A stretch of DNA of 64,000 nt, taken from Tubiluchus corallicola (Eukaryota > Animalia > Priapulida). Shown one piece after another: positions 30,001 through 61,550 of this stretch (positions are counted from its first letter, which is position 1; each line of letters opens with the position of its first letter). Location of the stretch: positions 620,001-684,000 of the forward strand of contig JAQGDQ010000055.1 in the NCBI GenBank assembly GCA_030141605.1. The letters are read 5' to 3'. The translations under genes were made by a program, and so were the position numbers. Under the pieces are notes generated by a model, which did no database searches, was not told the DNA's origin, and saw only the letters and a program-made list of their open reading frames with translations.

Positions 30001-30579
30001 AAACTCTTACAATAAAATCCACAGTTTTCAAAAGCCTAAAACTCTGAAGTAATTCCTAACTAGTGTTTCTAATTCATTATACTGGATCTAGAAATGGATA
30101 AAGAAGAGATAATTGGCCCTAATCAGTGAAAGTTCATTAACAACCAATTAACCTTCAAAAGCATGAAATTTTGAAATTATTCATAGCTTTCTAATTATAC
30201 AGGATATTGATTGTCTGTGTGATTTTTGTCATTTGTCCATAAAGAGATCTATGTCTGCATTACTTGGCATTCTTCGTGTAGTGTGTCTCTAACTATCTTA
30301 AATGCACCGACAGAAATGCAAAACTTGCCCGCATGTACGGTGCGTGTGTGCAATAATCCAATGCTTAGCATTCTGAGGTAGTAAGAAGAGATAATTACTC
30401 TTAATGAACAAAAGTTCATTAAGACTTCTTAAATGCAATTAGTTTTCAAAGCGTGAAATTCTAAAGTGGCAAGATTTAATACAGTTCTGTTGCTGCTAAC
30501 ATAGTGTTTTGCTTGTTAAATTGGTAAATTGTTTAATTATCTATCTATCTATCCATCTATCTATCTATCTATCTATATA

Positions 30580-30610
<31 letters not shown>

Positions 30611-40479: not shown

Positions 40480-40713
40480 CTACTGTAATTCCATCCACCT
40501 CTGAAATGCCCGTTTTTTGACGTCAGGAAAGTATTTGAACACTTGTTCACAGTCGTCTTTGGTCAGCACAAAAAGTAGTGTTTCACTCACAGCTTGAGCA
40601 TAATAGTCTCGGACAAAAAACTGTGTGATTGCTTCCTCGCCAAAATGGTCACCCTTTCCCAATGACCTGCAGCTTTCAGAATCTTCCCCTAATTTTTCAT
40701 CTGTAAGTTCAAC
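40480..40713 (-). CDS. CNGK: Gene B terminal exon, CNBD IV end
   Basis: KGDHFGEE...LFVLTKDDCEQVFKYFP, stop TAG. Confidence 0.9.
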   Translation of the reverse strand, partial: VELTDEKLGEDSESCRSLGKGDHFGEEAITQFFVRDYYAQAVSETLLFVLTKDDCEQVFKYFPDVKKRAFQRWMELQ

Positions 40714-43700
40714 CTGAAGACAGAAAGGCACTTGAAGAGTGAAGGCATTTCAGTATATGACCTTGGTCACCCGCTTCCTACTTAGAATATTGTACTCTGC
40801 ACAAATGCAGAATAAATTAGTTTTAAGATTGATTTTCCATGACTAATTAACACATTGTTCTAAAAAAAGGAGATAACTACAGTTGAACCTCGTTATACCG
40901 CTCCCGTTATAATGCCAACATTGCCATAACGACAACTATTGCCATCTCTCAATTTCCATAATACAATGTAGAGAATACTGTCAACCTTACCTACTGCCAT
41001 CCCCAAACGTATCTGGTGTGCCAAAATCTATTTTACATAATAAATTTACCCCATTATAACAGCAGCCAAGATAAAGTACAATGAATTGTTAGTGAAAAAC
41101 AGCCATTGCATTGTAAAAACAAGGACGTCTGAACAGAAGAACAATACTGATGTTTAAATTAAGATTTACTTGTTGTAAATGACTGTATGAAAGTGAATGC
41201 TAAGGTTTTCAGCAAGAAGCATGCATTTCAAGAGTACAAGAGTTGTGTAGCTAAGGCTTAGTACTGAATTGACAGTGAATTTAACGGCTGTTTCACTCAA
41301 GGTCAAGTTATATGTGGCAGCTATTCGAGTCTTAATCGAACTAGTAATGTTACGTTGGGAGCATGGGTGGGCTGAGTGGCTGCATATTTCTTTTATCAGG
41401 AGACAGCAGTATTACACCTGCATTAATTTTGTTAACAGCAAAATGTACAGTATATTACATATTTTGAAGGTATAATAATATTACACTATTTATGACATGT
41501 TAAAATTAACTAGGAAACACAATAGAGGTTACACACTGGAATAGCTTTAATATTTAATGAACCTTGTTTTACCGCCAGTATAGCACCATACTTAGTGGTA
41601 TCCCAGACCTGGTGTAATAACGATGTTTGACTGTACTATAGCAGATATGCGGTAAAAGCATCAGACGTCCGTCATCATATACTGAGACTAAAGAGTGCAG
41701 TATGGAAATTAACAGGCTATGATTTAACTAATTAATTATAAATTCTGAGGAGCAGAAAGTAATTGAAATACCTGCCCAGCATGTACAAAGTACATTTCAG
41801 TTCCGGCATCACCCCTGTGAAAAATGTACTGATCTGGAATAAACGGCACCAGTGACACCTTCTGGGATAGCATGCGAAAGAAAGCTGTTGACTCGTTTTC
41901 AAAAAGAGAAACCTGGGAACAGCAATACAAGTTATAGAGAAGCTATTCTTGTTGCTAAAGATGTATAGGTAGTTTGTAATGCTAATAGAAAAGCTATTCT
42001 TGTTGCTAGAGATGTAGAGGTAGTTTGTTATGCCAATAGAGAAGCTATTCTTGTTGCTAAAGATGTAAAGGTAGTTTGTTATGCTAACAGAGAAGCTATT
42101 CCTGTTGCTAGAGATGTAGAGGTAGTTTGTTATGCCATCAGATAAGCTATTGTGTTGCTAGACATATAGTTTGTTATGCCATCAGAGAAGCTATTCTGTT
42201 GCTAGAGATATAGTTTGTTATGCCATCAGAAAATCTATTCCTGTTGCTAGAGATGTAAAGGTAGTTTGTTATGCTAACAGAGAAGCTATTCTTGTTGCTA
42301 GAGATATAGTTTGTTATGCCATCAGAGAAGCTATTCTGTTGCTAGAGATATAGTTTGTTATGCTATCAGAGAAGCTATTCTTGTTGCTAGAGATATAGTT
42401 TGTTATGCCATCAGAGAAGCTATTCTTGTTGCTAGATATGTAAATGTAGTTTGTTATGCTAACAGAGAAACTATTCTTGTTGCTAGAGATGTAAAGATAG
42501 TTTGTTAAGCTAACAGAGAAGCTATTCTGTTGCTAGAGATATAGTTTGTTATGCCATCAGAGAAGCTATTCTTGTTGCTAGAGATGTAGAGGTAGTTTGT
42601 TATGCTAACAGAGAAACTATTCTTGTTGCTAGATATGTAAAGGTAGTTTGTTATGCTAACAGAGAAGCTATTCTTGTTGCTAGAGATGTAAAGGTAGTTT
42701 GTTATGCTATCAGAGAAGCTATTCTGTTGCTAGAGATATAGTTTGTTATGCCATCAGAGAAGCTATTCTTGTTGCTAGAGATATAGTTTGTTATGCCATC
42801 AGAGAAGCTATTCTTGTTGCTAGAGATATAGTTTGTTATGCCATCAGAGAAGCTATTCTTGTTGCTAGAGATGTAAAGGTAGTTTGTTATGCTAACAGAG
42901 AAGCTATTCTAGTTGCTAGAGATGTAAAGGTAGTTTGTTATGCTAACAGAGAAGCTATGCTGTTGCTAGAGATATAGTTTGTTATGCCATCAGAGAAGCT
43001 GTTCTTGTTGCTAGAGATGTAAAGGTAGTTTGTTATGCTATCAGAGAAGCTATTCTTGTTGCTAGAGATGTAAAGGTAGTTTGTTATGCTAACAGAGAAA
43101 CTATTCTTGTTGCTAGAGATGTAAAGGTAGTTTGTTGTGCTAACAGAGAAGCTATTTTTGTTGCTAGAGATAGTTTGTTATGCCATCAGAGAAGCTATTC
43201 TTGTTGCTAGAGATGTAAAGGTAGTTTGTTATGCCACCAAAGAAACTATTCTTGTTGCTAGAGATGTAAAGGTAGTTTGTTATGCTAACAGAGAAGCTAT
43301 TCTGTTGCTAGAGATATAGTTTGTTATGCCATCAGAGAAGCTATTCTTGTTGCTAGAGATGTAAAGGTAGTTTGTTATGCCACCAGAGAAACTATTCTTG
43401 TTGCTAGAGATGTAAAGGTAGTTTGTTAAGCTAACAGAGAAGCTATTCTGTTGCTAGAGATATGGTTTGTTATGCCATCTACCACATACAAAAAGCTAAC
43501 CAATCTTATCAGCCCACTTTCTCAAAAACTGTTTATCAAACAGTGATCTCATTATAACATCACAACGCCGGAAAATTTATAATAACAAGTTACCGAACCT
43601 TTTAACATATCCGAATTTCTAGTAACACAAATTACAATTTACCTGTTTTAACATATGTCCACATACAGACATTTGTATCTCAGTCCAAAGGCAGGAAGGC

Positions 43701-46700
43701 AGCTGGCATAACACTGTTTTTGGATCTTTGCCCATGTTATAATTCCAGACATTACTGAAGTGATCAAACACCTTAGTCTGATACGATTTTGAAAATTTGT
43801 GGTTTTTCATAAATTTCTAAAAAAAATGAATAGCTTTTTTTACATTGGGCACATAAAATCACGTTGACATGCAAAGTAATGTTCGCTACTAGGTAGCTGT
43901 TGCTAGCAAAATAAGCACGACTCTAGAACAGTTACATATGTGAAATACATGTTGTTCACTTACGAGCACACCACAATTTAGCTAATTAATTATACAAAAC
44001 TAATTATAACTCATATTTCTTATTACTTTTTAAGTAATTTAATTTTAAATCATTCGATGTTTTGACAAATTCACCCATAAGTGCAGCCACACTTAGTGTA
44101 TGTATGTGCACAATATGTTACATGCAGGTGCAAATTGCTTGAACATGCGGGTCTGACATAGATCTAAATCATCTTATTACCTATCATCTGGGACTGACTG
44201 TGTCATAAGTCGATGACTACTTGTAGTACATGGGCACGCTGCATGCAAGCAAGGACACTGGGAAGAAAAGTATATTTTTACTGACATAACTGCCATTAAT
44301 CCTTTGGAAATCAATAAGTTCTACCATATAAGAATTTTAATTTCTAATAGAGTCGGAGTAATATCGCCAATCAAATGTTTGTGTGACAGTTTTTTCTAAC
44401 AGTGAGCTTGTACAAGGAACAGGAATTAAACTGAATCTTGTCTGCATTAGTACATGAGTTTATGATCTAAGACTACATGTATGCTTGCAAACCATAACCG
44501 TCCATAAGTCGGCATAGTTAAAACTATGTTATGATGCTTCAAAGTAGAAAGCACCAAAAAATTTCAAATGCCAAGTTTTTGTTTTTTATAAAAATGAACT
44601 CTAAATATAACAGACTTTTATATTCTAGCATCAAATTAGCAAGGAAGTGTTTAAAAAATACAAAAAAATTTAATTTTATAACCCCGTACCCACTTTTCTG
44701 GCTAGAAACTAGTACTACATTTGTAAATGCTAGCTCATGGAAGCTGTCATTTTGCTTCGGGTTTTGTCTGTTGTCAAGCCCAAATCTTTGTAAGGAGGAG
44801 CCATTTACTGGATTTAAACATAACTTTAATGTGCTTTTGCACAGTCCATAGCAACCACCTGCTCATATGGTTGCAAAGTGTTTTGCAGATATGTAACAAA
44901 AAACAATGGCGACCTTTAACAGCGATTTTCTGAAGATTATGTTTTTCAGTGCGTAGCATGCACCTCAACTTAAACATGAATTATCTCAGCTCAGAAATAA
45001 CATAGCGTGATGAGCTTGGTATCAGATGGAGATTCGGGGTATGTGAATAACCAGAAAACGTTAATTGCCGACTTATGGACGATTTTGCTATGCAAACACA
45101 CTTGTTAAAAATACCTCCACACATGGTTTCTGTACGGTTTCAATCTGGCAAACACTAAATGTGATAAACTAAATTAAATGTAGTTCACTTTGTTAGACAT
45201 ATTATTACCTGGCAATGACAGTTTTATAAAGCTGTTATAAAATGCTTCTTAAAATGACAGAATATCAGACCATTGGGCCTCCAACTCCCAAATCACACCG
45301 GTCAAAACAAGTTAGTCTTTAACGTTCAAGAAAAAGTGGTACCTTTACAGAACGCATGCTTGTTTCAAAATTTGTTCTCATATTTTCCCGATTTGCTAGA
45401 GTCGACGAAATATTTCCCAAAATAAAACCAAACATGAGTTTCCCAAAAACCATGGCAAGACACGACAATACTGAAAGAGCAAAAGACGTTCATTATCGTC
45501 ATTGTAGCATCAGCACAAGTAGTTTCAAAAGTGCGAAAATCTTCCTACAGAAATTTGCTTACTTATTTGTATATTGTAGTATTCTAACATATATTTAAAA
45601 TAGTACTTGAGGAATTCTGTCTGACTTCAACAACAAGCATCAACAATTACATGAAAAACAGCTTACGGAATGGTAAGAAATGCTTAATTTTTATTAGCAA
45701 ATTTCAATAACAAAAAAGATGTGATTTAATTGCTGATATGTATTTTTGTGAAATGAAGCCATACCAAGTAAACGAAGTTATATAATATCATTTTAAATTC
45801 AATCCAAAGTTTTACAGCACTGACAAGTACAAAGGTACAATAACCAACATTGTAATGTTTTGGAGATGGTTAAATTTACCGATATTCTTATAAAGGTACC
45901 TTTATAAAATATTTTTATATTTTTAAACATCCTGTGAATCATATATTTACCCAAGAGTAAAATCAGAACAAGCTCTGTAAAAAGTACTTCAGTAAAAATT
46001 ACATACTCATTTCTCGTTTATTTACGCTATGAATGTCGCCGTAACCAGTAGCAGTCATAGTTGCTACACTCCAGTACAAACACAGCATATACGCCCTGTC
46101 TGGTGAAATTTCTTTCTCTTTTACTGTAGAAAAAAATTGTTAATAAATGACCAACCTTTCAGTGACAGTGTTTACAATTAAATGATGGATGATTGCGAGG
46201 GTGTGGAGTGGATAACACTCATGTATGAAGCAGATATTGTCTTGACTTATAAAGCAAAAGTGAGAGTGATGCAAACTTGGCAAACGCAAAAAGAAAATCC
46301 TTCAGCATTCAGCGGCACGTGAAAACACCATATAACACCATTATAGCCAACATGGTTTATTGCGTAAACACTGGTAATGCGAACTCACAAAAAAGAACGA
46401 ACTTTCATCAGTTATTTAACTAGTATAATAGCTTAGAAAGCAGCGCACTCGGTTGTCAGGCCCACTACTTGCATTACTAGGTAATTATAGAGTTTTTCTG
46501 CATACTTTACCTTTGTCAACTGTTTCTATATTAATTTGCAGTTAAATTTAATCCATCATTTTTGGTGCCGCACAAAAGATGCAGCTTGCAGAGTTGCTAA
46601 CACGTCGTGTCAAAATGCCATTTTGTCTACTAGCTATATAAGAACAATGAGTCACTCAGTGGTTTGGCACTCAGCTGAGATGCTTCATGAAATGATAAGC

Positions 46701-49700
46701 CCTACAGTCCCTCTGCAAAAACTTTTTAAACAAGGGACAAACAGAAATTGTGTGTAAGCAAAACTGACTGACTTTGAATCTCACTGAATCCTTATTATTC
46801 TCAACTGAACATGTACATGCATTCATTAATTTTTAGTTTCACAAAGTCACATAAAATACTTTTTACTAAATGTGAATAAACAGTAAAGTAGTTGATACCT
46901 GATAGGATCCTCTAAAAGTACTTCATATCCTCTATGAATCCACACACTGTACTTTATTTATACACTTTTATTGTTATTACTTGCATGACTATCTAGTAGT
47001 CATATAGATATTATTAGTTGAGTATGCTTACAGAGTATACATCGGCTACAGAGTACTTTTTTCTGGGTCACTAGCACGTTCGCTGTTAATGACATAATAC
47101 TGTTATACTAATTATACTGGTGTTAGCATGTGCCCCATTCATCCTCCCCTTTTGCAGATGTCTGATAAGTAAAATGAATTAGAGCTTCTCTGAGGCTCAA
47201 ACTCTTTCTGCTCACCACAAGTACAAGCACACTTTTGAAAATATTACACATAAGCAAATGATGAAATTTCACTTTACCTAATATTTCTTGAAACCAGGAA
47301 TCTTTAATGCACGATTCGACGCCGTGTACGCAGACTATAAAAAACCACAAGCAGGCAAAACTGTGCATGAGAAGTGCTAGTAGACAGCTAGATTTCAAAG
47401 CTCTCACAGTCAATAAACTAAAAGAAAATGCATAAAAAGTTAAAAAGATAAATTTATGTTAATTAAAGAAACGTTACAGACAGAATCATGGATGTGATAA
47501 TAAAAAATATGTTTTTATTTGCTAATAAATAGATATTTTACAGCCCATAAACATCAGCAAAATGCAGCACCTTGAAAACAGTGCTGCATTTCAAGGTGTT
47601 GTATTACATTGAGGAAGCAACTCGTAATGGGCTGCGAAATATGTCTATTTATTAGGAAATAAAACATAATTCATTTATTATAACATCCATGATTCCATCT
47701 GTTATCTTTGTTTAATTAATGTTTTCGACAATGGATGCCAAACCTATTAAAATCTTGAGACATATTTATACTCTATAAACATGTACAAGTAGTATGTGAA
47801 CATGTAGACGAAATTAACAACAACAGAAAAAACCCTGCCTTTCCTGCCTGGGACTTGAACACAGGACATTTTGAATGGGCGGTTGGCCATTCATGTTGAT
47901 TATATTACCAAATCCAACGCTAGTTCAGAATTTTGACCGGTTCAGTTCAGTTCAGTTGGAAACAAAAACCCGAGACAGGCAAACCTCAGATCTGCAGACT
48001 GTATTTTTTCCATCAAAAATCATGTTAAAATCCATTAATTAGTAATGTGACCTAAATGCAACAAATAGACAGATTTTCAAAATGTGTTTTTTTTTTTCAA
48101 ACAAACCAATAGCATCAGAAAGCAAGATGCAAAATACAATTCCTAGGTAAAAGCCTGAAATAATTATTAAAGTGATAGAACAAATTTTTGGTAGCACTGA
48201 AAGGTCTAAAATTTTGAGCTGCTGGCTACAGATCACAGGAAGTTTGGAAAGGACATTTTTGCATCAATTGGATACCATTAACTCTGATGAAGTCTCTTAC
48301 TTTGACTGGCAGTCATTCTTGTGAAAGAAGTGTTTGTTAAATATGTATTAGTTTTGTCTTGTAGCAAAACGTTCACTTAAACAAGTCCGACTCACAAACA
48401 CAAAAGCATTTTAAATCGTGTTGAGCAAAACACAATATGACTTACTTAGAATGAATATCATTTTCCCATTTGTAAAAGAATTGCAGAAGCCGAGGGAAAC
48501 GTATCAGATGGAATAATCGCAGGTAGCTCAAAGCATCCAACTTGTTCGGCATGGCCAAAGCGAAAATCTCTACAGGGAAAACTGCAAGTAAGTCAAATGG
48601 CAAGCCATAAATATGTTTTACATATGCCTCTTTTATTGCCTCATAATCCACCACTAGTTCTCCTTTATCTCCTCTGAAAGCTGTTCGGGCGTTTAGCACC
48701 ACCTAAAAATGTGCACAAGTTCAGGAGCAAATCTAAAGTCAACATACATAAAACCAATTTAATGTGTTTGAAAACTATTATTGTGATGTGTTTGAAAACT
48801 ATTAATTTAATATGTTTGAAAACTATTTATTTAATGTGTTTGAAAACTATTATTTTAATGTGCTTAAAAACTATTATTTTAATGTGTTTGAAAACTATTA
48901 TTTTAATGCGTTTGAAAGCTATTATTTTAATATGTTTGAAAACTATTATTTTAATATGTTTGAAAACTATTATTTCAATGTGCTTGAAAACTATTATTTT
49001 AATGTGTTTGAAAGCTATTATTTTAATATGTTTGATAACTATTGTTTTAATGTGTTTGAAACTATTATTTTAATGTGCTTGAAAACTATTATTTTGAAGT
49101 GTTTGAAACTATTATTTTAATGTGTTTGAAAACTATTATCTTAATATGTTTGAAAACTATTATCTTAATATGTTTGAAAACTATTATTTTAATGTGTTTG
49201 AAAACTATTACATATGCACAAATGGCAAAATTTTGACAGGAAAGACACAAACATAATACTCTAGTGTTTCATCAGTGGCATTTGACATCCCAAAGAAAAA
49301 AGCAATTTAAAAAACTGAAGATCCCATATGCAAACAGCATTCCTACTCGAAGTTTAAGCGGAATTGCTATTTTTTATTCAGTTTAAGTTACACGTCGGTT
49401 CATCTCCACATGAGACAGATCTGTCAGTTACTTTAATTCATTACACGTCTGAGAAAAATGGGAGACATAAAATTAAATAAACAATACGAGTTTGTTCAGT
49501 TCCAAGCTTCCAACTTATTCTAGCATTCTACTGTTTCCCTTTTCTCTTTCCCAGGCTTTCCTCTTTCTAATTTTCTCTCACTCCCTCTTTTTTTAAATTT
49601 CATAACGCATCTTTTTTATATGCCGGTAACCTCCTTTCTCACACCCTACTGTCTCCCTGCCTATCACTTGGATAAATAATTACAAAAAATAGACAAGAAT

Positions 49701-52700
49701 GTTTACACACCTTAACCATGATTATCACCTCACACAGGTAGCACAAAATGTAATAATATGCATCATGGACTTGAAAACATGCCTAAAAAACAATGTCACA
49801 TTTTAATAAATAATAAAGCCGTCACTATTGCTGTTCTAAGAATGAGAATATATTTTGATATTTTGCAATGTAAGCACAAATGTAATCTTACTGTATAAAT
49901 TTATTGATGGAATGCTGATGAACTACTAAAAATAAAAAAAACTAAAAGCAAATCTCAAATTATTACTAACTAAAATGAGTTGAAAACATGTGCAACTCTT
50001 ACCTGAAAGCTTGTAATCATGATGCTAACGAAGATGGCTAAAGCACTGGCAAAAGTGAAAAGGCGGACAACACAAAATTCCGGATCAAGTACATAATAAA
50101 GCTTGGCATGTGACGCAAGTGTTAATCTCCTAATACATGACTGTTCACGTTTTGGCTGATGAAAATTCACTATAAAGAATTTTATGATATATAAAGAGAA
50201 GAATTACAAGTCACTAAAAAAGACTCATTGATTTAACTGAAATCGTCATTTCAGAAACACTGTAAACTTCGCACTATCACGGGTACAATTTAAACTTTAC
50301 TCATCTAGTCAGGACGAAATGACGAAGCGACTAAATGGAGCCATTGCATGCAGAGGTATGAATGAACGCACTTTCCAAGACATTATGAAGCACCCTTATT
50401 GACAGATAGAAATTTTCCTTGCTTAAAACAGCAAAAAGAAAAACAGAATTTTCTAAGAACTGGCTAGAAAATGAACATAAAAGTATCTAAAATCATTGAA
50501 AGCAATTGGCAAAAATTGCAGCTTTGGGCAAAACCTGAAAAACTGATAAGCCATATGTACCTGCCAATTGACGTAAGTTTCATAAAAACAGGCTGTCGCA
50601 AGAGAATAAGCGTGATAATGTCACACTCAGAGTGTAAAATTTGTACAGCTGAACGCCTTTACTATTTGCTGATATTTTCATGTTTTCAAATGCAATAGTT
50701 TAAAATTTTGCAGAACTTACCTCGGTTAGGAATGCCAACAAGTATTGAATTATTGTGATACTGGAAGTAAAAAGAAAATGCATTAAGCAAACGATTCTAT
50801 GAAAGCCGGAGCTGTTATGATTTTAAGCTTCAGAATTGTGAAACAGTTTCAAAATACATCATCTAACCACAGAATGTTTGAGCAAAAACTGTGTATACAT
50901 TTCAGTACAAGCAAACAATAGCCAAATAACAAACTTAAACATCAGTCAATACAGAACGGTAATTTAGTCTCTCACTAGAGGGTGACACTGCACTCCAACC
51001 TTACAAAGGAAAGCAAAGTACTCAAAAAAAAGAATGTCTATAATTACCAGATCTGCGAAACTCAAAGCACTGGAACTCAGGACAGGATGTTTCCACTCTT
51101 CACTCCTTTGGATAGCTTTTTTGAAAAAATAACGTTTTACCTCTGGAAAGCAGGACGCGACCCAGTCAAAGTCATCCTTATGCAGTACGAATAGATAACA
51201 GTTTGTATCTGCGCTAAAGAACAAAATCCAGTCAAGAAAAACAAGTGAAAACAGCATCACGTAACCATTGTTACTATTCAAGTAAATAAAAACATTTTCC
51301 ACAGCAACTTCGTTTCAAAATCACAGAACAAATTTCAACCATGTTGAACAATTTTTGCATTTTATGGCTCTTAATTTAAGTATGAAAGCAGAACTTGAAA
51401 TCACGGAGACTCTGAATTCATTGAAAATGTTTTAGCTATGTTCTGTATGTTTGCTATGTGTCTGTTATGTTCTTCGGGTCTCGGCAATTGTTAATCATAT
51501 TTAAACTGACCGCTATTCATCTGTTGTCAACTTAGTATTTCATTCCTTATGTAATAGTTAGTGCCACCATAACCTGTTGCTGTAAGGATGTTCATTAATC
51601 CTTTCACTACATTGTTGCTTTTTAACTGGGCCACATTGACTTTTGCACATTTCACAATAACTTCTTGTGGTGTGTTACTAATTCAGAATCTTGTAAATGA
51701 ACAAATAGCTGTTCGTTATTAAGTACTAATATTAAATATTAGTTATATTTCTACATATGCACACACATGTGAGAAATATGTAGAACACATACATGCACTC
51801 GCGCACACATACACACGTGCACCAATCATAAATAAGCGTGTACTTATATTTAGAAACCAGTTTTCACAAAAGGCACAATACTAATCCATAATATGCAATA
51901 TCGTTTTATAAGAAATCAGAACAATCAACTAAACACATTTCGTCAATGATCTACAAGTGATTTTGTGTGGGAACATACCATACAGTACAATGAATTGTTA
52001 CAATTATCAGCCTTAGGGATACATTTCTTTTGTAATAGAATCAAACATGTCTACTTTGTTACACTTCGGTGATGAAGTCAACAATAATAATGAAACAGCA
52101 GTAATATTAATAATAGTTATAATAACAATAATAGTAATACATAATGGTTGCATTTCTTGGCACGTTGCGTAAAAGTGCTCGTTCTCCAAAATACTCTCCT
52201 ACACGTAATGTGACTTGTCTTTCAAAGGTTTCTTCATCGATAACAGATGCAGTACCATCATGAATAAAGAACATCTGTAAAACAAGAAACAGTTCCTGCT
52301 GACATAGTAGGATCATGTAGTAGCAGTAGTAATATAATCTTTATTTTGCCTTTTTAAAAACATTGACAATCATAATAAAAAAGACAGACAACCAGTGTTA
52401 GTTCATATAAAAAACACACACTGTTCTGGGCAAATGTGTCTGGTGCAAGTTAAACTATAAGTGCAACAAGAAATTCAAAAACAAAAGATAAACTACAAAC
52501 ACGCAATGCACTACAAAAAAACTACACACGATATTTCTTTCTTGCACACACTTTCATGCCTGCACGTACGCATGCACGCACACACCATATTATAGTCTAG
52601 TAAGACCTAGGATAAATGAAATCATGATTTTGAGTGAATATCATCATGTTCATGTGTAAGATATTCAAAACGGGTAATTAAATATTGTTTTAATTTAGAC

Positions 52701-55700
52701 TTGAATATTGATAAAGAGCTGCTTTGTTTTAGTGATGTCAGTAATGAATTCCAAAGTTGTATTGGTTGTTTAGTAATGAAATTTTTTCCATATTGATTGT
52801 TTATTCTAATATTTCTTAAATTTAGCCTTTTATTATTCATACTGAGGTTTTGAAAAAGAGGGAGCTTATTGTTGATGTATTTATAGAGGAAGAGGAGAGT
52901 TTGACAAGTCTGTGGGCTTCGAAAATGGGGATTTTCATGTATTATCTTAAAGAGGCTGCAGAGTTTTTATTTTTATTGTCAGATGATTTCAAAGAATAAC
53001 CATTAACTAATTAACTAATTAGTTAGTGTCACGATGATTGAATAAAATTAAGAAATAAGAGTGTCTTATTACTTAAAAAGTTTATATCTCTGTTTTATAT
53101 GCCAAAAACAACATGAAAAAGATAAGAAACAGTTCAACTAAATGGCATTTAGTACTTTATTATAAGAAAAACCATTTTTTTAGAAGCACAGTGAAAAAGA
53201 TAGATAGGAAAATACAGCAGTAAATCAGTTCTGATACAGTTTTGGAAGGTGTAAAAGATTTAGTAAAGACTGTTAAGAAACCACTCAAGCGAATGTAATG
53301 GGATGTTGATCTCCCACAAATATGTCCACACAGTATTGTCAGGATTTTGGGACAACGATCACTCGAACATGTGATATTTCTAACGAATGACAGAATCGGC
53401 AACGCTGCTGTTCAAAGGTTGAATTGCTATTAACTTACACAAATTACTAATTATGATGAAACTGTTATCAGCTACAGAACAGAACAAACTGATTATGTAA
53501 ACATTTAACTGCACATATGAACAGAATTTGTAGTATTATGACTGGCCAGATTGAGAAACTTATGGGCCAGAAATCCAGAAATGATATCTAACCTTCTATT
53601 ACCAAATTTAGCTCACAAGAAAAAATTTAAGATTCACGTAAACAAACAGGCACGCATATATTTTATGTTTATATACCTCTAGACCGATATCATCTTTCCG
53701 TACGATGTATTCTCCTTTCATGATGTACAAAGGCCTAATAGCCTTAGCTAACAACTTCTTAAAACTTACGTCCATATCTTTGAATTCTGGAACCTGTGGC
53801 AAAACAAACAGAAAAGAAATAGTGGCTAATTGCCAAACAAAAATGTTAAACTATTAGACCAGAAATAGAATTAGCAGTTGAAAACCTATAGTGACTTACC
53901 AACTTGTGAAAATTATAAAACTAATTAATGTTAACTAGTCTTATAATTGCTATGTTTTTAAACAAGCTTTCTGGCAAAGAACATGAATTTATTTACTGTA
54001 AAATTAAAAACTCTCTTTGGCTAACTACAAAAGACCTACTTGTACATTTTCTCTAAACATACAAATGCAAGATGTTAATTATGTAATTGCATGAGAGCAA
54101 CGTAAAGTAAAAGTGTAACAACTTCACAAAAAGAACCTCGTCAATAACAGTTTGATAGACTGAAAATGTTGTAACTCCCAGCAGTGATGGTGGCAGCATG
54201 CTGAACAACTTTGCAGGATCTGTCCCCTTTGATCGGAGCCACACATATTCCAAATGTCCAACGGCGCGATTTTTCAAATCGGTATCAACTCGCGCATTCT
54301 GAAAAAATATATTAGAGATACCCTGTAAAGAAACAATAACGTAAATATTTTTGGAAATTAAAAAAACACCAGATGTTTAATGCATATTTGCTGGTAGTCC
54401 TAACCGGGTTAAGTACTGCAAATTAAAATTCTAAACTATCATTAATATATTAACTAGAATTTGCATATGAAAATGTAAAAATACTGCATAACAGTGAAAC
54501 TGTTCAGCTATAAAACTGTCCCACTGCAAATAGCAGCAATTCACTAAACTCCTTTAGGTATTACTTCACGATAAAATAATAAATTCGGCAAGTTCAAGTG
54601 CCACTAATCTACTGGCTTAAACTTTTAGTTAACTCCTTCAGGACCACATGATTCAAAATAGGTCTCAAATCAACTTATTTATCTTATAAGACCTCTGACT
54701 TTTCTGCTACTGTATGAGCACAGACATAACTAAATGATTACAAATTAGGCACTGTTCTATTCAGGAGAATCTTGTCTGCCAATTCATGCTATTTGTTTAA
54801 ACATTTAAACATTTATAAATGAATGAATTGTGTAAAATTAAGAAAAACACGCTCTTCTCAGGCACTCGAACTTAGCCTATCAAGTAACTTGGTATACATC
54901 CTACAGCCTTGGAGAACTGTCTGCTGTACAGAGTTCCAGGGAAAGCCAGCCGATCAGCCAAGCAAAAACTAACAGCTGCATCTTTTAACAGGAATTTCTC
55001 GTTAAAAATAGAGTAGACTTGACGCCAAAGTGTATCATAGTGCTGTGTCTGGATAGCTGAAATTTTCTACATTAGCCGATTTCACACAAATGATATTTAC
55101 ATTGTTGCCGTGCAAACACTGCAGTTATTGAAAGCTTTTTTCAATTTTTTCGTCAAAAATCCATTTTTAATTTGTCTAAGGTAAGCATGAAAATCCATTG
55201 TGTGAGAAGAAGGAACCAACAAAAATTATCAAATATAACATAATCACTGCTTAACAAGAGGAGTTTTTCAAGAACAAATGCAAAATGCAGCAAATGCTTA
55301 TGGTTCTGGAGGAGTTAAAGAAGTAAGTAGGTAAGTTTATCAACAGTCGACTAATATTATATAACTTAAGAAGTAAGCTGAAGAGAAATGTTTAATGTTT
55401 ATACAAATCAGCAAATATTTAGAGTAACTAAGCTAAACACCCTCAGGTTAACTGCTTGTTTTTCCAGTAAAGTGTGTTGCATAGGGAGAAAAAAAATCAC
55501 GCTCGATTATAACGGACTATGCTTCCCCCAATTAGTACAGCATAACAAGAGTTTATAGTACAATCGATTTTGCAATAAATGTTTAAAAAAACTCCAACAA
55601 AACTGAATACTAAAAAGCAGTAGTGGTCAGCATTTCAGTTCAGCCTGGAAACAGCTTACCTTGCAGTACCGCAGTAAAATTTTGATGTGCTCCAAAAATC

Positions 55701-58700
55701 CCATCCTCTGCGAATCAGCATTGGCTTTAGACGCTGCAATTCTTGCCATGATATACCCAAAAAACACTTGGCCTCCGATAATCAGTGGTATAGTCCAAGA
55801 CACTTCGTTGTTGTTTTGCGGCGTAATGTCACCATAGCCCACACCTAAGGCCGTGGAGCTGGCCATATAAAGACTAGTTATATACTGCTGAATACCGTCA
55901 CGAGTTACATTAGACGTAATGTTTAAAGCACTCAACCATGTATTCTCACCGCATTCAGTGGTAGACGCATGGTGTTCGCACTGGGAAAAAAAGATTTCAG
56001 CTTTGGGAGTGCAAGCCAAGTTCATTAAGATACACACACATATATTGAGCATCAGCAAAGAAAAGAACAAAAACTTCACCATCCTGAAAAATAATGCAGA
56101 TCTAAATGCCAACAGTAAATATTATTTTGCCTATAAATACTAAGAGTTTACGCGTATGGCATGGCTTTATATTTATATATCAAGTTATATATAATAAATA
56201 TTATTAGAAACGTCATTTATGAGCTATGGAAATTTGTGTGCCAATAACTTGAATATTATCTCACTGATTAGTCACTCAAGTTGTGAAAGTTAAAATCATA
56301 ACTTAAAGCAAAGTATTTAGCTTAATAATGGTTACTAAGCTAAATAAAAAATACATTGTGCTAGAATAAAATACATTAACATCTTCCCCTTATGATGCTA
56401 TACACAATAATGATATATGCATGTAACAGTTTCATTGGAAAATCATTGGGAGTGATAGAAAAGGATACTTGAAAACTTAACTAGCTCATGTAACCAAGGA
56501 GGAACAGCTTGATAAAAACACCCTTTCATATAGCTGCTGTGGTGTCTTAATTATTTTCCTTATAATAATTTTCGACCGAGAAATAACCTAATCTGTTCAG
56601 AGTCTTTAAAATGCTGAAGGAAGTAGCGGAAGAAATGGGGGAAAAGTTGCAACTTGTTAATAAGGTTTTCTATCTATATTATAACAATTTAAACCCTTAA
56701 CATCAACATATTGAGGGAACTTTGCCTGTTTTATAATATCTCTTAAAGGAAGATTGGATGATTTTGCATATAATACCATTTTGTGGGTATTGCACATGTT
56801 TGCAAAAATGAAAATTGAAGTACAGTGATGTTGTAAGATAGTCAATGTGTTGTACTAAATTTGGTAAGTTTTAAGATAAATTTACGCTAATTTACTGCTG
56901 CACTCACGTCTGAGCTGTCGAACATGTGCAGTGCATCACAAACTAACACATCTGAACTAAAAGAAACAGCAACTGTTTTTTATACAATGCTTTCTGAAAT
57001 GCAGTCGCTAGTACCCGTCTAACTAGTGAATAGCGAAATGCATGTAACAGTGAAGAACTAGTGGCGCAAATGCAAAATTGCGTGTGTGACAGAAATTCTT
57101 TCACATAAGGCATTCTTCAAAAAACAGTACGTTTCCTTTCAATATTTGTACGAGTAGATTGTTTTGACCAAGTTTAACATTGGGTCCAGCTTTGCTTTAA
57201 TGAGTAATACATAGTAAAATACCAAACAACATGCATCTGTGTATTATTGATAAAATTATAATAGTTTCCCTGATTTGTTTATTGTTCACTTTTAGTGCAA
57301 CTTAAGTATAAATCAGTTACACAAAGCATGACACTTACCTTGCAAGAGCCATGTTAAACGTAACACTAGTCTCCAAATAGTTGAAAGCAAGTACAACATG
57401 GTAAAGATGTAACATGCGATTAAGCCGTAATATTGACAACATATGCAACGAGCAGTAATTCAAATACGGATGGACAACAAAGGTGGTCATTTCGATGGGA
57501 AAGATGGATATTAAATCAACAATAAAATTGGTTTCGACGTATCTCTTTGCCGTTGCCAGCGGATGTTTGATAAGAACATTATCTTCATTATAGTAACACA
57601 TGTGTGCTTTTATATACCTAAAAATAAATAAGAAGCCATTTCATAAACATCTACCACAATAGCGATGCATTTTCTAGAAAATTTGTACATTTAGCTAAGC
57701 TATGCTAGTTTTGAAAAAACTGCATGAACACATAGTGCTGCAGGCTTTTTTACAATCATTTATTTACTGAATTTCACGTTTTTAATACAGTTCAACGCTT
57801 TGCAAGCCATGATCCAATGAAGCAGTTAACAACAGCACCAATTTAATATAAATAGGTGTGGAGGAACCTGAATTTGTTGAAGCCGCATTCATGGGTAGTT
57901 TTGATCTTGTAAACGTAACATGGCTTATATGATCTCAAACTTGCACACCTATTTTTGGATACATATTATGAATATTGTATGTTATCAAAGCCTTTGGCTA
58001 AACTAACCATTGGAAATGTCTAGATACTGTGTCTTAGAGAACACAGAACATTGCAGAAACTTACTTACAGACTAGTTTTCATAGATAATTATGCTAATTT
58101 TAATATTGTCTGTTTGTGGCACTGTTGTTAATGTTGCTTATGTATGTAAATGTTGTTAAATGTATATGTTAGCATTGCAATTAACTGTTTCTCTTTTTTA
58201 TAGCAGTTGAAACCATAGGTAAGTATGTTGTTCTGCCACAGTGTAAGTATGGTATATATATATAAATATGTTTCTCTTTTTACTCATGCATTTTTGGTTT
58301 TGGTTACTAAAGAAAAGGTAATTTAGGAACCTCGGAATTCAGCGCTTCTTCCCCTTTAAAGTACAAATTTTTCTTTCAAATTTCCGCCATTTCTTTACAG
58401 CAACCTATCTAATTCCCTCATCCATTAAGAAGCTGCTATTAAACACATTCAGTCATGCAAGAAGCACAATAGGAAACATCTTTAATGCAAAAAACTCACA
58501 TGTCAGCGTACGAAATTATGTCCATTAGGTAGCAAAGGAACCAAAAGAACAAGTTATCATACAATGCTGAAGAATGTACCGGAGCAACTAAACATTCTAT
58601 CATGGCAACTGCTACACGAATGATCTCCCATCTGACAATAAATCCACCATTAGGTATTATTGTCTTTCTGCAAAAAAGCAGTGTCAGTATATTGTTTTAG

Positions 58701-61093
58701 AAAATGCTAATTAAGCACGTAATTATACTACTAGAAAAGGCAAAATAGTTTTTTTATTGTCTATTCGCAATTAAGTGTTTCAGTTTAGTATAACTGTTTT
58801 TGCAAAAACAGACATTAGTAAGTAAAAAATAAATGTCTTAACCTCATGAAACATTTCTTTAAACAGGCAAAACGTGAATTCTCAAAGTGTAGATCATAGT
58901 CACTCAAGTGATCAAATGACACAAATGATGAAACATAGGCAAGCCCAGTGATAACTTCATGTGCCTTAAACAAAAAAAATAATCAAAAAAATTATGTTTG
59001 ATGATTTAAATTTTACAACAGAGATTTATTTAACATATAACATGAGGTTTATTCACATATAACCTCAAGGTTTCAATTGGTCAACTTTTAAAATAAGACA
59101 CATGACAGTACTTAGATAAACTCTTAAAGTATAACATTTGCAATAAAATCAAGCCATCATTTACTGAGATCAAAATACTGGTGTTCTGAGTTCTATGGTC
59201 CATAAACAATTTAATACGTTAACTCATTTTCTTGAAACAAATAACTGATCAACAACTGATTAGCGATTTTTCACTAACCAAGTAAAGGCAGACTTTCATA
59301 AACTTATCATAAATCATTTTTATCAGGCAAGATCAATCAGTTTTTGCCTACTTTTGTAAAAAAAGTATCAAAATAACAATTCAGTTAGGTAACAAGGATC
59401 AGGCAGAAGACATGGGTCACAGCTAAAACAAACAAAATTTGCATAAACACATAAATGGCTGCAAAATAATGATATAACCTCTTCAAAGCTATAAAAAAGT
59501 GCATAGGTTAAGGGCATTCACAAGTTTAGTGAGCAAAATATTTGCATTTACAAATAAAAGAAAAATTAACTCACAGATACACCCTGCTCAGATTCTTCGT
59601 CAAATAATTTCTTCTTCAATTTTCTAATAATGTCTCTTTGTCGACAGGCACGCCGGAACTGAGCTTTCACTAATGGAAATTCTTTGCAAAGTTTTTCAAA
59701 TTTGGCACGCTGTATCACAAATGATTCTACTGTAGACTTGGCACGAACAGTCATATGATAATGAGAATAATCAAGTAGAGCTAATTCTCCAAAAGCTTGA
59801 CCAGGGCCAATTTCTGCAATGACATTTTTCATGTCATCCAGAAACTGAAATTAAAAAAGAAAAAAATTAAAATCAAAGCAAATTAAAGTCAATAAAACAT
59901 GTTTCCAAAAGGTGTAAAAAAATTGGCAATCTGAAGGTAATTTGTTCTTAAAAATAGTCAATTAATATTATTTGTTGATAATGATGTTTCTTCAACTAAA
60001 TAATTTCTAATTATAGGTAATCTGTACTATACGAACAGAAAATATTAACTAGAAAAGCTCAGGCAATAGAAATTGGTTTATTTACACAAAATTTCGTTTG
60101 CATAATTGCACAGTTTACAACCTTACTTGAGAAATGCCATGAGGCAGAAAGCTGAGACAAATATAATAATTTTAATGCTTTTTTAACTATTATGTTTAGG
60201 GATAAATCGTACATTATCTACATTAAGAAACTAATTCAAGAACACAAAAATGACAGAAATGCAGAATTGGCAAAAATTGAAGTTCAGTGAGCTTGAAGGT
60301 ATAGCTCTAATATAAGTTCATCTGTAAAGTTTTAAAAATATAAGTGTGAGAACATTTTTGTATACACCTTTAAAGTAATCACTACTGTAAATTTGTTTTT
60401 TCAATATAATATTAGAATATTCTGTTTAATGAGTAGTTGCAGAATGCTCTAGTACATATTGAAAGGTTGATGGTGGTTATTTGGTGACAGCTAGTAGTTA
60501 TATGGAACTGCAACATGTGAAATCTACTCGAGGAGTAATCATCTGGGCTAAAGTTTACAATTCCCCACCCACCAGAAATTAGTTCGTGAACAGATTAAAG
60601 TCAGGGTTGGGGTTAGGGATAGGGTTAAGTTTGGTATTAGGGTTAGGATTAGGGTTAAGGTTAGTGCATTTACATTGTGTGTGGAATTGTAAACTTCTTC
60701 CATCATCTGTTAGTACCTCACAAATTCCTCGGCGGATACAATACATTTCCTCCTTCAAGTCACCAGCATAGACTAACATTTGTCCACTGCAGTAAGTATA
60801 CTTATCTGCCTGTTGAAACAGATGCTTGAAAAATGTCTTGTCTATTTCCTTGAAGAATGGCAACTATCAAAAACACAAAAACCACAAACAATAAACATTA
60901 ATTTAAGCAAGAAGATATAATGATATAATTGGCTGCAAGTAGGATATAAATGCAGTAGATTTTGCACTTTGCGTGATGACAAAACATACTCACTTGCAAG
61001 AATGGCAGAGCGTCTGAAGTTGCAATATCCTGCTGAACATCAACTGGCAGTCCTGAGTAAATACGTTTATCCGTTCCTGGCATTTCCTCACCT
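40480..61093 (-). CDS. CNGK: Gene B: paralogous CNGK-like multi-repeat channel, 5'-partial (C-linker II to end of repeat IV)
   Basis: 21 GT-AG exons splice into about 1186 codons with no internal stop. They are colinear with gene A exons 8196-38768 and have the same phases. Filters are LGVGYGD and TATGYGD. Confidence 0.9.
40880..41633. mobile_element. Tigger/pogo-like MITE
   Basis: TA|CAGTTGAACCTCGTTATA ... TAATAACGATGTTTGACTG|TA; related fragment at about 35865-36052. Confidence 0.72.
41772..41912 (-). CDS. CNGK: Gene B exon, CNBD IV first half
   Basis: FFRMLS...GDAGTEMYF, 141 nt. Confidence 0.9.
41936..43478. repeat. 1.5 kb minisatellite with 44-53 bp units
   Basis: agagaagctattcttgttgctagagatgtaaaggtagtttgttatgctaac, about 30 copies in long and short variants. 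Confidence 0.95.
43643..43816 (-). CDS. CNGK: Gene B exon, repeat IV C-linker
   Basis: DPKTVLCQLPSCLW, 174 nt. Confidence 0.9.
44495..45085. mobile_element. MITE-like element
   Basis: Inverted ends CGTCCATAAGTCGGCA ... TGCCGACTTATGGACG. Confidence 0.7.
45343..45470 (-). CDS. CNGK: Gene B exon, repeat IV S6
   Basis: GKLMFGFILGNISSTL, 128 nt. Confidence 0.9.
46007..46123 (-). CDS. CNGK: Gene B exon, repeat IV pore (CLYWSVATMTATGYGD)
   Basis: GYGD filter, 117 nt. Confidence 0.92.
47278..47417 (-). CDS. CNGK: Gene B exon, repeat IV S5
   Basis: HSFACLWF, 140 nt. Confidence 0.9.
47460..47720. repeat. About 260 bp foldback (imperfect palindrome)
   Basis: gaatcatggatgt..aataaatagatatttt.cagccca..gcagcaccttgaaa mirrored by tttcaaggtgttgt..tgggctg..tctatttatt..acatccatgattc. 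Confidence 0.8.
48446..48702 (-). CDS. CNGK: Gene B exon, repeat IV S2-S4
   Basis: RTAFRGDKGELV...RLFHLIRFPRL. Confidence 0.9.
48758..49211. repeat. 24 bp minisatellite (ttttaatgtgtttgaaaactatta), about 19 copies
   Basis: seen directly. Confidence 0.95.
49711..49782 (-). CDS. CNGK: Gene B exon, repeat IV S2
   Basis: ACFQVH...YLCE, 72 nt. Confidence 0.88.
50003..50169 (-). CDS. CNGK: Gene B exon, repeat IV pre-S1/S1
   Basis: NFHQP...VLDPEF. Confidence 0.88.
50721..50760 (-). CDS. CNGK: Gene B microexon (YHNNSILVGIPNR)
   Basis: 40 nt, ttccAG/GTAAGT, phase 0 to 1. Confidence 0.82.
51048..51213 (-). CDS. CNGK: Gene B exon, CNBD III end
   Basis: ADTNCYLFVLHKD...FPEV. Confidence 0.88.
52141..52274 (-). 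CDS. CNGK: Gene B exon, CNBD III phosphate-binding cassette (YFGERALLRNVPRNATI)
   Basis: 134 nt, canonical Arg retained. Confidence 0.92.
52330..53010 (-). mobile_element. Degraded LINE (CR1/L2-type) 3' end
   Basis: Minus strand IQLWNSL...SLSIFKSKLKQYL, then a UTR ending aataaagattatattactactgctactac. Confidence 0.55.
53677..53793 (-). CDS. CNGK: Gene B exon, CNBD III start
   Basis: VPEFKDMDVSFKKLLAK, 117 nt. Confidence 0.9.
54137..54298 (-). CDS. CNGK: Gene B exon, repeat III C-linker
   Basis: RAVGHLEYVW...LPPSLLG, 162 nt. Confidence 0.9.
54633..55314. mobile_element. Non-autonomous piggyBac-like element
   Basis: TTAA|CTCCTTCAGGACCA ... TGGTTCTGGAGGAG|TTAA (imperfect TIR, TTAA TSD). Confidence 0.72.
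55660..56083 (-). CDS. CNGK: Gene B exon, repeat III S5-pore-S6 (SLYMASSTALGVGYGD)
   Basis: GYGD filter, 424 nt. Confidence 0.92.
57339..57617 (-). CDS. CNGK: Gene B exon, repeat III S2-S4
   Basis: HPLATAKRY...RLNRMLH, 279 nt. Confidence 0.9.
58500..58667 (-). CDS. CNGK: Gene B exon, repeat III S1-S2
   Basis: TIIPNGGFIVRWEIIR...YLMD, 168 nt. Confidence 0.9.
58843..58964 (-). CDS. CNGK: Gene B exon, repeat II-III linker
   Basis: AHEVITG...SDYDLHF...FMR, in phase. Confidence 0.8.
59575..59844 (-). CDS. CNGK: Gene B exon, CNBD II second half
   Basis: GPGQAFGELALL, 270 nt. Confidence 0.9.
60546..60700. mobile_element. Short inverted-repeat element with expanded TTAGGG-like core, copy 2
   Basis: AAGTTTACAATTCCCCAC ... 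GTGTGGAATTGTAAACTT around about 10 degenerate TTAGGG units; shares gaaattagttcgtgaa with 31622-31725. Confidence 0.65.
60717..60863 (-). CDS. CNGK: Gene B exon, CNBD II first half
   Basis: LPFF...GDLKEEMYCIRRG, 147 nt. Confidence 0.9.
60994..61093 (-). CDS. CNGK: Gene B exon, repeat II C-linker
   Basis: GEEMPG...GLPVDVQQDIA, 100 nt. Confidence 0.88.
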
Positions 61094-61550
61094 CTAGCAA
61101 AAACCAACAACTGCATTTGACATGTTCACGTTAGCAAAGCATGGATTGTATACAATGTAACTTGCAATCGATGCAGTTGATAATCATTGTAAATTCTCAT
61201 TTTTGTTGTAACTAGAGGACAGCCAGCCACCCTCACAAAAACTGCTATGGGAGAGACAGGTAAAAATTTATTTTTACATTTTTAATCCTATGACATAGTG
61301 TTTTGAAATTTTCTAACAGAGATTGAAACACCTAATCAGACATCTCAATGCCAAGTTTGGTCATTATTGCTTCATTTTCTAAATGCCATGCCCATGCAAC
61401 AATTAATGTCAGGAATTCGGGGGGGGGGGGGGGGAATCATTGAGGGGAAGTAAAGACCAGAGGCCATCCCTGATGAAACAAATACACCCACAGTCCAAAC
61501 AAATGTATCGATCTTACTATCTATCTATATATAGATAGATATATACAGAT

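What the first reader, a model, noticed from the sequence alone, without database searches (positions are those of the whole stretch)
46035..55870. Gene B has lost the S4-site hydroxyl in both visible selectivity filters (LGVGYGD, TATGYGD)
Seen: at the position two residues before GYG (KcsA T75 in TTVGYGD), gene A has Ser in all three pores (SSLGYGD, ISVGYGD, TSTGYGD). Gene B has Gly in repeat III (about 55828-55854) and Ala in repeat IV (about 46035-46060). Repeat III of B also changes the pore-helix SLYW to SLYM. Known: this Thr/Ser hydroxyl builds K+ site S4, and the weakly selective HCN channels carry Cys there. Inference: B may be a four-repeat channel with an asymmetric filter and reduced K+ selectivity or altered conductance, possibly depolarising where A hyperpolarises.
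Basis: partly seen in the sequence, partly recalled or inferred. Interest (0 to 1): 0.8.

Follow-up and report, generated by a model that had tools for sequence, protein, structure and literature searches.

The report
Duplicated sperm-type K+ channel, half-stripped filter
An invertebrate animal carries two neighbouring copies of a channel gene of the sperm CNGK type, and in one copy two pore loops lack the hydroxyl group that helps hold the innermost potassium ion, which likely makes it a lower-conductance, differently gated but still potassium-preferring channel rather than a depolarising one.

Summary
Observation confirmed. Gene B (minus strand) has Gly (repeat III) and Ala (repeat IV) at the KcsA-T75 site, plus Trp-to-Met in pore helix III; paralog A has Ser in its three visible pores. 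B splices into 21 GT-AG exons with an open frame and is sister to A (51% identical). Its pores I and II lie outside the window and were not seen. The change is rare in marine invertebrate CNGKs (79 of 80 pores Ser/Thr) but common in fish (repeat III non-hydroxyl in 21 of 29; anchovy has the same Gly-III/Ala-IV pair). Zebrafish and sea-urchin channels keep all four hydroxyls. Published Thr-to-Ala mutants of four Kv channels stay K+-selective with lower conductance and altered inactivation; two bacterial channels lose selectivity; the HCN cysteine is not what makes HCN weakly selective. Best reading (0.6): a K+-preferring CNGK variant with weakened S4. A depolarising channel is possible (0.17). 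New lead: B has Gln at the KcsA-I100 position of repeat III, a possible substitute for the lost hydroxyl. The scan noted a four-repeat channel with mismatched filters in another genome before. New variant of a known kind; moderate interest.

The parts
40480..61093 (-). Gene B, part in the window: 21 coding exons from C-linker II through CNBD II, repeat III and repeat IV to the stop; 1185 residues, open frame
   Evidence: All 20 introns GT-AG, exon phases match gene A one to one, one stop at the end; exon cores from a profile search
55660..56083 (-). B exon with S5, pore and S6 of repeat III (424 nt, same length as in A)
   Evidence: Pfam Ion_trans and Ion_trans_2 above cut-off
55843..55845 (-). 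Gly at the KcsA-T75 (S4) position of repeat III, GGT
55864..55866 (-). Met at the KcsA-W68 position of pore helix III; aromatic in 50 of 50 named non-arthropod CNGKs in this repeat
55768..55770 (-). Gln at the KcsA-I100 position of S6 in repeat III (Val in A; Ile/Val in 17 of 17 invertebrates; Gln in 0 of 23 fish/newt)
46007..46123 (-). B exon with the pore of repeat IV (117 nt, same length as in A)
46050..46052 (-). Ala at the KcsA-T75 (S4) position of repeat IV, GCT; the next residue is the Thr typical of marine CNGKs
52141..52274 (-). B exon with the phosphate-binding cassette of CNBD III (FGE...PR kept; Asn follows the Arg in both A and B)
975..38768 (+). Gene A, part in the window: 26 coding exons from S1 of repeat II to the stop; convergent with B, stops 1.7 kb apart
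   Evidence: open frames; the acceptor at 6394 is one of four in-phase candidates
6524..6526 (+). Gene A Ser at the S4 position, pore II
17269..17271 (+). Gene A Ser at the S4 position, pore III
34510..34512 (+). Gene A Ser at the S4 position, pore IV
61854..63998 (+). THAP / P-element-like transposase ORF running off the window, upstream of B's first visible exon (in a presumed intron); B's next exon is not in 61095-64000
   Evidence: Pfam THAP and TNP-like RNase H; no match to A's upstream exons (best E 0.87)

Best explanation
Gene B is an intact duplicate of a CNGK-type cyclic-nucleotide-domain channel gene that lacks the S4 hydroxyl in pore loops III and IV, and it likely remains K+-preferring and hyperpolarising, with a predicted lower single-channel conductance and altered coupling between filter and gate. 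Shown: the residues, the open spliced frame, the paralogy with A, and the distribution of the site in relatives. Inferred steps: (1) B continues upstream into repeats I and II like other CNGKs; (2) the backbone carbonyl sites S1-S3 of the intact GYGD loops still form; (3) losing two neighbouring hydroxyls weakens K+ binding at S4, which in Kv channels lowers conductance 2-4-fold, favours opening and removes inactivation without admitting Na+; (4) the Gln at the I100 position of S6 in repeat III, which in KcsA touches T75 of the same subunit, may partly replace the missing oxygen. A and B would then differ in current size and kinetics, not in sign.
For: Open 21-exon frame, 51% identity to A, dN 0.41 with synonymous sites saturated (pS 0.74), so B stayed under purifying selection. 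GYGD, pore-helix Thr72 and the -1 residues are unchanged in both pores. Four-subunit Thr-to-Ala mutants of Kv2.1 and Kv3.1: PNa/PK 0.010 and 0.013 against 0.015 and 0.014, conductance down 2- and 4-fold, activation shifted by -60 to -80 mV, no inactivation (PMC7231921); Shaker and Kv1.5 also selective. B has lost only two hydroxyls that can be seen. Natural tolerance: repeat III lacks the hydroxyl in 21 of 29 fish/newt CNGKs, including salmonids and burbot, whose sperm respond to low external K+ with K+ efflux and hyperpolarisation or are inhibited by K+ (PMC5955499 title and passages; the channel responsible is not identified there). T75 contacts I100 of the same subunit (PMC6168234 passage); a polar residue at this position is normal in repeat IV (K/Q/R in 17 of 17 invertebrates, K in 23 of 23 fish/newt).
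Against: The same substitution abolished selectivity in NaK2K and MthK, and simulations of KcsA T75A showed reduced selectivity. The two CNGKs of known K+-selective lineages that I could read keep all four hydroxyls, so no CNGK without them is shown to be selective. Gly adds backbone freedom that the Ala mutants do not test, and B also loses the pore-helix Trp of repeat III (non-aromatic in 0 of 50). Pores I and II of B are unseen and could carry further changes. The Gln compensation rests on sequence register only; in fish, Gly at this site goes mostly with Ala or Thr at the I100 position, never Gln. Filter changes in B are not significantly enriched (p = 0.23), which fits drift as well.
Confidence: 0.6

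Rival explanations
1. B is a weakly selective, Na+-permeable CNGK that depolarises where A hyperpolarises. Loss of two S4 hydroxyls, a flexible Gly and loss of the Trp68 support would let carbonyls flip and water and Na+ pass.
For: NaK2K T63A and MthK T59A are non-selective. UNC-58 shows that one odd residue in half of the pore loops can make a K2P channel Na+-permeable and depolarising, though at the neighbouring -1 position (PMC11513965 passages). The site is Ser/Thr in 79 of 80 marine invertebrate pores. A keeps the canonical filter, which would free B to change; B's branch is longer (0.59 against 0.37).
Against: Four eukaryotic Kv channels stay selective with all four hydroxyls removed. 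The HCN cysteine is not the cause of HCN's weak selectivity. GYGD is intact in both pores. B-only changes at conserved sites (17) do not significantly exceed A-only changes (8; sign test p = 0.11).
Confidence: 0.17
2. The substitutions are nearly neutral: relaxed constraint after duplication let small Ser-to-Gly/Ala changes fix, and B conducts much like A.
For: Each needs one non-synonymous base change; no significant enrichment in the filter; the site flips among S, T, A, G, V and N between related fish.
Against: The site is nearly invariant in invertebrates (79 of 80), B changes only 2 of 74 invariant sites that A keeps, and the tested Thr-to-Ala mutants all changed conductance or gating.
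Confidence: 0.13
3. B does not form a normal four-repeat channel: it is truncated upstream (a transposon sits before its first visible exon), or it is a non-conducting or regulatory copy.
For: No B exon for pore II or C-linker II in the 2.9 kb left in the window, 2.1 kb of which is a THAP transposase ORF. B has an unusual Lys in S6 of repeat III (SKAN).
Against: The first visible exon has an AG acceptor in the same phase as A's; introns in these genes reach 3.2 kb; 1185 codons without stop or frameshift at about 50% divergence; the exons of CNBD II are kept, which a two-repeat remnant would not need.
Confidence: 0.1

Closest known systems
Sea-urchin CNGK / tetraKCNG (S. purpuratus NP_001075433 = P0239; ApCNGK as described in PMC4749565)
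   Same: Colinear 6TM-pore-CNBD repeats, GYGD loops, Val before GYG in repeat III and Thr in repeat IV, FGE...PR kept in CNBD III; echinoderm CNGKs are about 33-38% identical to B
   Different: Sea-urchin channel has Ser at S4 in all four pores, Trp in pore helix III, Ile at the I100 position of repeat III and Thr after the CNBD III Arg; B has Gly, Ala, Met, Gln and Asn. The ApCNGK sequence itself was not seen.
Zebrafish CNGK (NP_001410132 = P0249; K+ current 51 mV per decade in sperm, pH-gated; PMC4749565)
   Same: Same family and architecture; asymmetric pores; Lys at the I100 position of repeat IV
   Different: Thr/Ser at S4 in all four pores, hydrophobic -1 residues, GFG in III and IV; that this record equals the recorded clone XP_001335499.5 is assumed
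Untested fish CNGKs: anchovy (XP_063059056, P0225), spotted gar (P0217), salmonids (P0211, P0215)
   Same: Anchovy has GVGYGD in III and ATGYGD in IV, the same pair as B; gar and salmonids have GVGYGD in III
   Different: Separate branch of the tree, so convergent; anchovy also lacks the hydroxyl in I and II; none has Gln at the I100 position or Met in the pore helix; no recording found in my searches
Engineered S4 mutants (KcsA T75A, Shaker T442A, Kv1.5 T480A, Kv2.1 T377A, Kv3.1 T400A, NaK2K T63A, MthK T59A)
   Same: Same filter position, same loss of the side-chain hydroxyl
   Different: Symmetric, four of four subunits; B is natural, single-chain, and has Gly in one loop and Ala in the next
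HCN channels (CIGYG) and C. elegans UNC-58 (TCGYG)
   Same: GYG channels with an atypical inner-filter residue and Na+ permeability
   Different: HCN's weak selectivity comes from loss of sites S1/S2, not from the Cys; UNC-58's Cys is at the -1 position; both are other families

Membership tests
CNGK / tetraKCNG | Four 6TM-CNBD repeats in one polypeptide | tested here: inconclusive
   B shows CNBD II plus complete repeats III and IV in one frame; repeats I and II lie outside the window and no genome is held. A shows II-IV.
CNGK / tetraKCNG | GYG/GFG signature in each pore | tested here: met
   GYGD in both visible pores of B and all three of A; two B pores unseen
CNGK / tetraKCNG | A CNBD after each repeat | tested here: met
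   PF00027 on single exons of CNBD II (40.8 bits, above cut-off), III (24.9) and IV (26.5), the last two just under the 27.5 cut-off
CNGK / tetraKCNG | Closest relatives are CNGKs, with colinear repeats | tested here: met
   Top hits among 1.84 billion representatives are four-repeat proteins, named ones from crinoid, amphioxus and nemertean; B aligns over about 1175 residues at 30-35%; A+B sit among protostome CNGKs (the tree held no HCN, CNG or KCNH outgroup)
CNGK / tetraKCNG | K+-selective current | not testable with these tools
   needs electrophysiology
CNGK / tetraKCNG | Gating by cGMP at CNBD III (sea urchin) or by pH (zebrafish) | not testable with these tools
   FGE...PR kept in CNBD III, Arg lost in CNBD II, Asn after the Arg in both paralogs
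CNGK / tetraKCNG | Expression in sperm or testis | not testable with these tools
   no RNA holder listed
HCN | Single-repeat subunit with CIGYG filter and long Arg/Lys-rich S4 | tested here: not met
   B has tandem repeats, no Cys at the site, and short S4 segments with few basic residues

The most novel reading that the evidence does not exclude
After duplication, B became a Na+-permeable, depolarising CNGK: a single-chain channel whose filter lost S4 hydroxyls, the Trp68 support and gained a polar cavity residue, working as the excitatory partner of the hyperpolarising paralog A next to it. Anchovy and gar CNGKs, which lack three or four of the hydroxyls, would be independent cases of the same switch.
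Probability: 0.17. Interest if true: 0.7.

Novelty: new variant of a known kind. Interest (0 to 1): 0.38.

Why it matters
What the S4 hydroxyl does for selectivity is unsettled: the same mutation spares four Kv channels and destroys selectivity in two bacterial ones. CNGKs are single chains, so each pore loop can vary alone, and the family holds a natural series with zero (gene A's visible pores, sea urchin, zebrafish), one (salmonids, carp), two or more (gene B), three (gar) and four (anchovy) hydroxyls missing. The A/B pair gives two paralogs from one genome to compare, with simple revertants. If B were depolarising, it would overturn the rule that CNGKs are K+-selective. If it is only a lower-conductance K+ channel, it is a modest variant.

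Tried and rejected
No whole genome is held, so B's repeats I and II could not be read; a search of 61095-64000 with A's upstream exons and a repeat-II profile found nothing. No RNA holder listed; runs X1 and X2 gave no splice joints of use. A single-sequence fold of the repeat III exon was uninformative (mean pLDDT 44.9) and was not searched; the alignment was not used further. The first word-index search returned only 3 proteins. The 1994 Shaker signature-sequence paper is not held and 'T442G' gave 0 papers; I recall that it found the hydroxyl at this position non-essential, but saw nothing of it. PMC9822992 (passages) and bioRxiv 2021.06.18.448929 (passages) had no data on half-mutated filters or on salmon CNGK. 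Rejected: sequencing error (open frames, same pair in anchovy, no differing letter in X1); wrong register (ungapped match to KcsA and SthK); the HCN-cysteine analogy; a significant concentration of B's changes in the filter (p = 0.23). Arthropod and unnamed partial proteins were left out of the counts because their automatic repeat assignment was unreliable.
Full report
Observation. A six-frame scan gave five pore loops in the window. Gene A on the plus strand has Ser two residues before GYG in all three (6530, 17275, 34516). Gene B on the minus strand has Gly in repeat III (GGT, 55845-55843) and Ala in repeat IV (GCT, 46052-46050), and Met for Trp in pore helix III. An ungapped match to KcsA (query 66-128, chain 5ebl_C 61-123) puts these at T75 and W68, if the chain starts at residue 1. 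Run X1 (contigs; may be the source sample) lists no other letter at these codons; it covers pore IV, and cover of pore III is inferred from bin depths only.

Gene anatomy. Using a profile of 27 full-length relatives and splice-site inspection, A and B each splice into 21 matching exons from C-linker II to the stop, all introns GT-AG, with open frames of 1193 and 1185 residues. Five more exons of A reach back to S1 of repeat II. These models have no RNA support. The genes are convergent, stops 1.7 kb apart. Identity is 599 of 1175 (51%); dN is 0.41 and synonymous sites are saturated (pS 0.74), so the duplication is old and B stayed under purifying selection. B's pores I and II are not in the window: a THAP transposase ORF fills 61854-64000, nothing there matches A's upstream exons, and no genome is held. 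In a FastTree tree of 59 sequences (1182 columns; only multi-repeat family members, rooted on an unnamed one) A and B are sisters (support 1.0; branches 0.37 and 0.59) and group with nemertean, annelid and brachiopod CNGKs (0.957). Other notes of this scan suggest a priapulid; I did not test that.

How unusual. From the hits I took 21 named non-arthropod invertebrate proteins and 29 fish/newt proteins (about one per genus; related, so not independent). In the invertebrates 79 of 80 readable pores have Ser/Thr (the exception is Asn in amphioxus repeat III) and 0 of 21 proteins lack two. In fish/newt, repeat III lacks the hydroxyl in 21 of 29 (Gly 12, Ala 5, Val 2, Asn 2), repeat IV in 2 of 28, and 5 of 29 lack two or more; anchovy has Gly in III and Ala in IV as B does; one gapped pore was dropped. 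Arthropod and unnamed partial rows were not counted. Many two-repeat proteins among the hits have Ala in their first pore (not counted), and supplementary file 1 of PMC7576140 lists AVGYG and GVGYG filters twice each, in tandem or single protist-type entries (search in supplements), while its text calls such deviations rare and individual (passages). The W68 position of repeat III is aromatic in 50 of 50 (Phe/Tyr in all 29 fish/newt), so Met is new in this set.

Chance. Of 214 sites at least 90% conserved in 20 invertebrates, B alone changes 17 and A alone 8 (sign test p = 0.11); the rate for B is 17 of 171, so both S4 sites changing is about 1 in 100, post hoc. The pore helix and filter hold 4 of 21 such changes against 13 of 150 elsewhere, which is not significant (p = 0.23). 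The double loss is therefore suggestive, not proven adaptive.

What the loss should do. The hydroxyl forms the floor of site S4 (PMC11251424, passages). Removing it from all four subunits left Kv2.1 and Kv3.1 selective (PNa/PK 0.010 and 0.013), cut conductance from 10.3 to 4.9 and from 24.1 to 5.6 pS, shifted activation by -60 to -80 mV and removed inactivation (PMC7231921, abstract and passages with Table 1). Shaker T442A and Kv1.5 T480A also stayed selective; NaK2K T63A and MthK T59A did not, and simulated KcsA T75A lost selectivity (PMC12658365 passages). The HCN comparison does not hold: Cys-to-Thr made HCN less selective, and HCN lacks sites S1/S2 (PMC9614928 passages). UNC-58 shows that an odd residue in half the loops can make a channel depolarising, but at the next position (PMC11513965 passages). 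Salmonid and burbot CNGKs have Gly in repeat III and their sperm are K+-controlled (PMC5955499 passages), which fits tolerance of one loss without naming the channel. I conclude that B most likely remains K+-preferring, with lower conductance and changed filter gating (0.6); non-selective 0.17; neutral 0.13; truncated or silent 0.10.

A further feature. In S6 of repeat III, B has Gln at the KcsA-I100 position (55770-55768), where A has Val, 17 of 17 full-length invertebrates have Ile/Val and 0 of 23 fish/newt have Gln; repeat IV has Lys/Gln/Arg there in 17 of 17 and Lys in 23 of 23. In KcsA simulations T75 contacts I100 of the same subunit (PMC6168234 passages). The Gln may supply a polar group under the bare S4 position. 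This is inference from register alone; my fold attempt failed.

Comparison and novelty. B works like a CNGK and meets the sequence tests that the window allows; the four-repeat test is inconclusive and function untested. Fechner et al. (PMC4749565; section 8 and passages) aligned pores of trout, gar and amphioxus CNGK and discussed the -1 Thr that causes Na+ block; in what I read they do not discuss the -2 site (figures are not held; I did not read its supplements). Searches showed no paper on S4-site variation in CNGKs or on a priapulid CNGK (one search listed 15 of 739 papers; subscription journals are mostly missing). Of PMC8835908 I saw passages; other papers in those lists I saw as listings only. 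The scan noted a four-repeat channel with mismatched filters in another genome (e1-7394232) and nothing like this sequence.

Verdict. Real feature, new variant of a known kind. It is unusual among invertebrate CNGKs, convergent with untested fish channels, and useful as a natural test of what the S4 hydroxyl does. The depolarising reading is possible but not favoured. Interest 0.38.

Noticed in passing
window:6527-6529:+: Gene A has Leu just before GYG in repeat II, where 21 of 21 named non-arthropod invertebrate CNGKs have Thr. That Thr causes intracellular Na+ block and rectification in sea-urchin CNGK (PMC4749565 section 8), so A may rectify less.
   Followed up: partly
window:24500-24633:+ and 52141-52274:-: In CNBD III both paralogs have Arg-Asn where nearly all invertebrate CNGKs have Arg-Thr. 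The Thr is recalled as favouring cGMP in CNG channels, so ligand preference may have shifted. CNBD II has lost the Arg in both.
   Followed up: partly
P0225 (anchovy), P0217 (gar), P0227 (newt Lissotriton): Anchovy CNGK lacks the S4 hydroxyl in all four repeats (Ala, Lys, Gly, Ala), gar in three; a newt has a CNGK-like protein with degenerate filters, although PMC4749565 states that amphibians lack CNGK.
   Followed up: partly
P0231, P0236, P0131, P0015, P0018: Arthropods (butterfly, beetle, planthopper, barnacle) have CNGK-like multi-repeat proteins; the insect ones have strongly degenerate filters.
   Followed up: no
window:55660-56083:-: S6 of repeat III in B has a Lys near the inner end (SKAN; Leu or Met in the relatives shown) and both paralogs have a basic residue five positions before it.
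   Followed up: no
window:61854-63998:+: Uninterrupted 715-codon THAP / P-element-like transposase ORF; multi-copy in run X1 (depth 265-425 against about 10), possibly recently active.
   Followed up: partly
window:20313-21774:- and 36413-37101:-: Decayed reverse-transcriptase (LINE-like) and Tc5/pogo-like transposase remnants in introns of gene A.
   Followed up: partly
window:42500-43250 and 48680-49120: Two intronic minisatellite-like arrays in gene B that give repetitive open frames.
   Followed up: no
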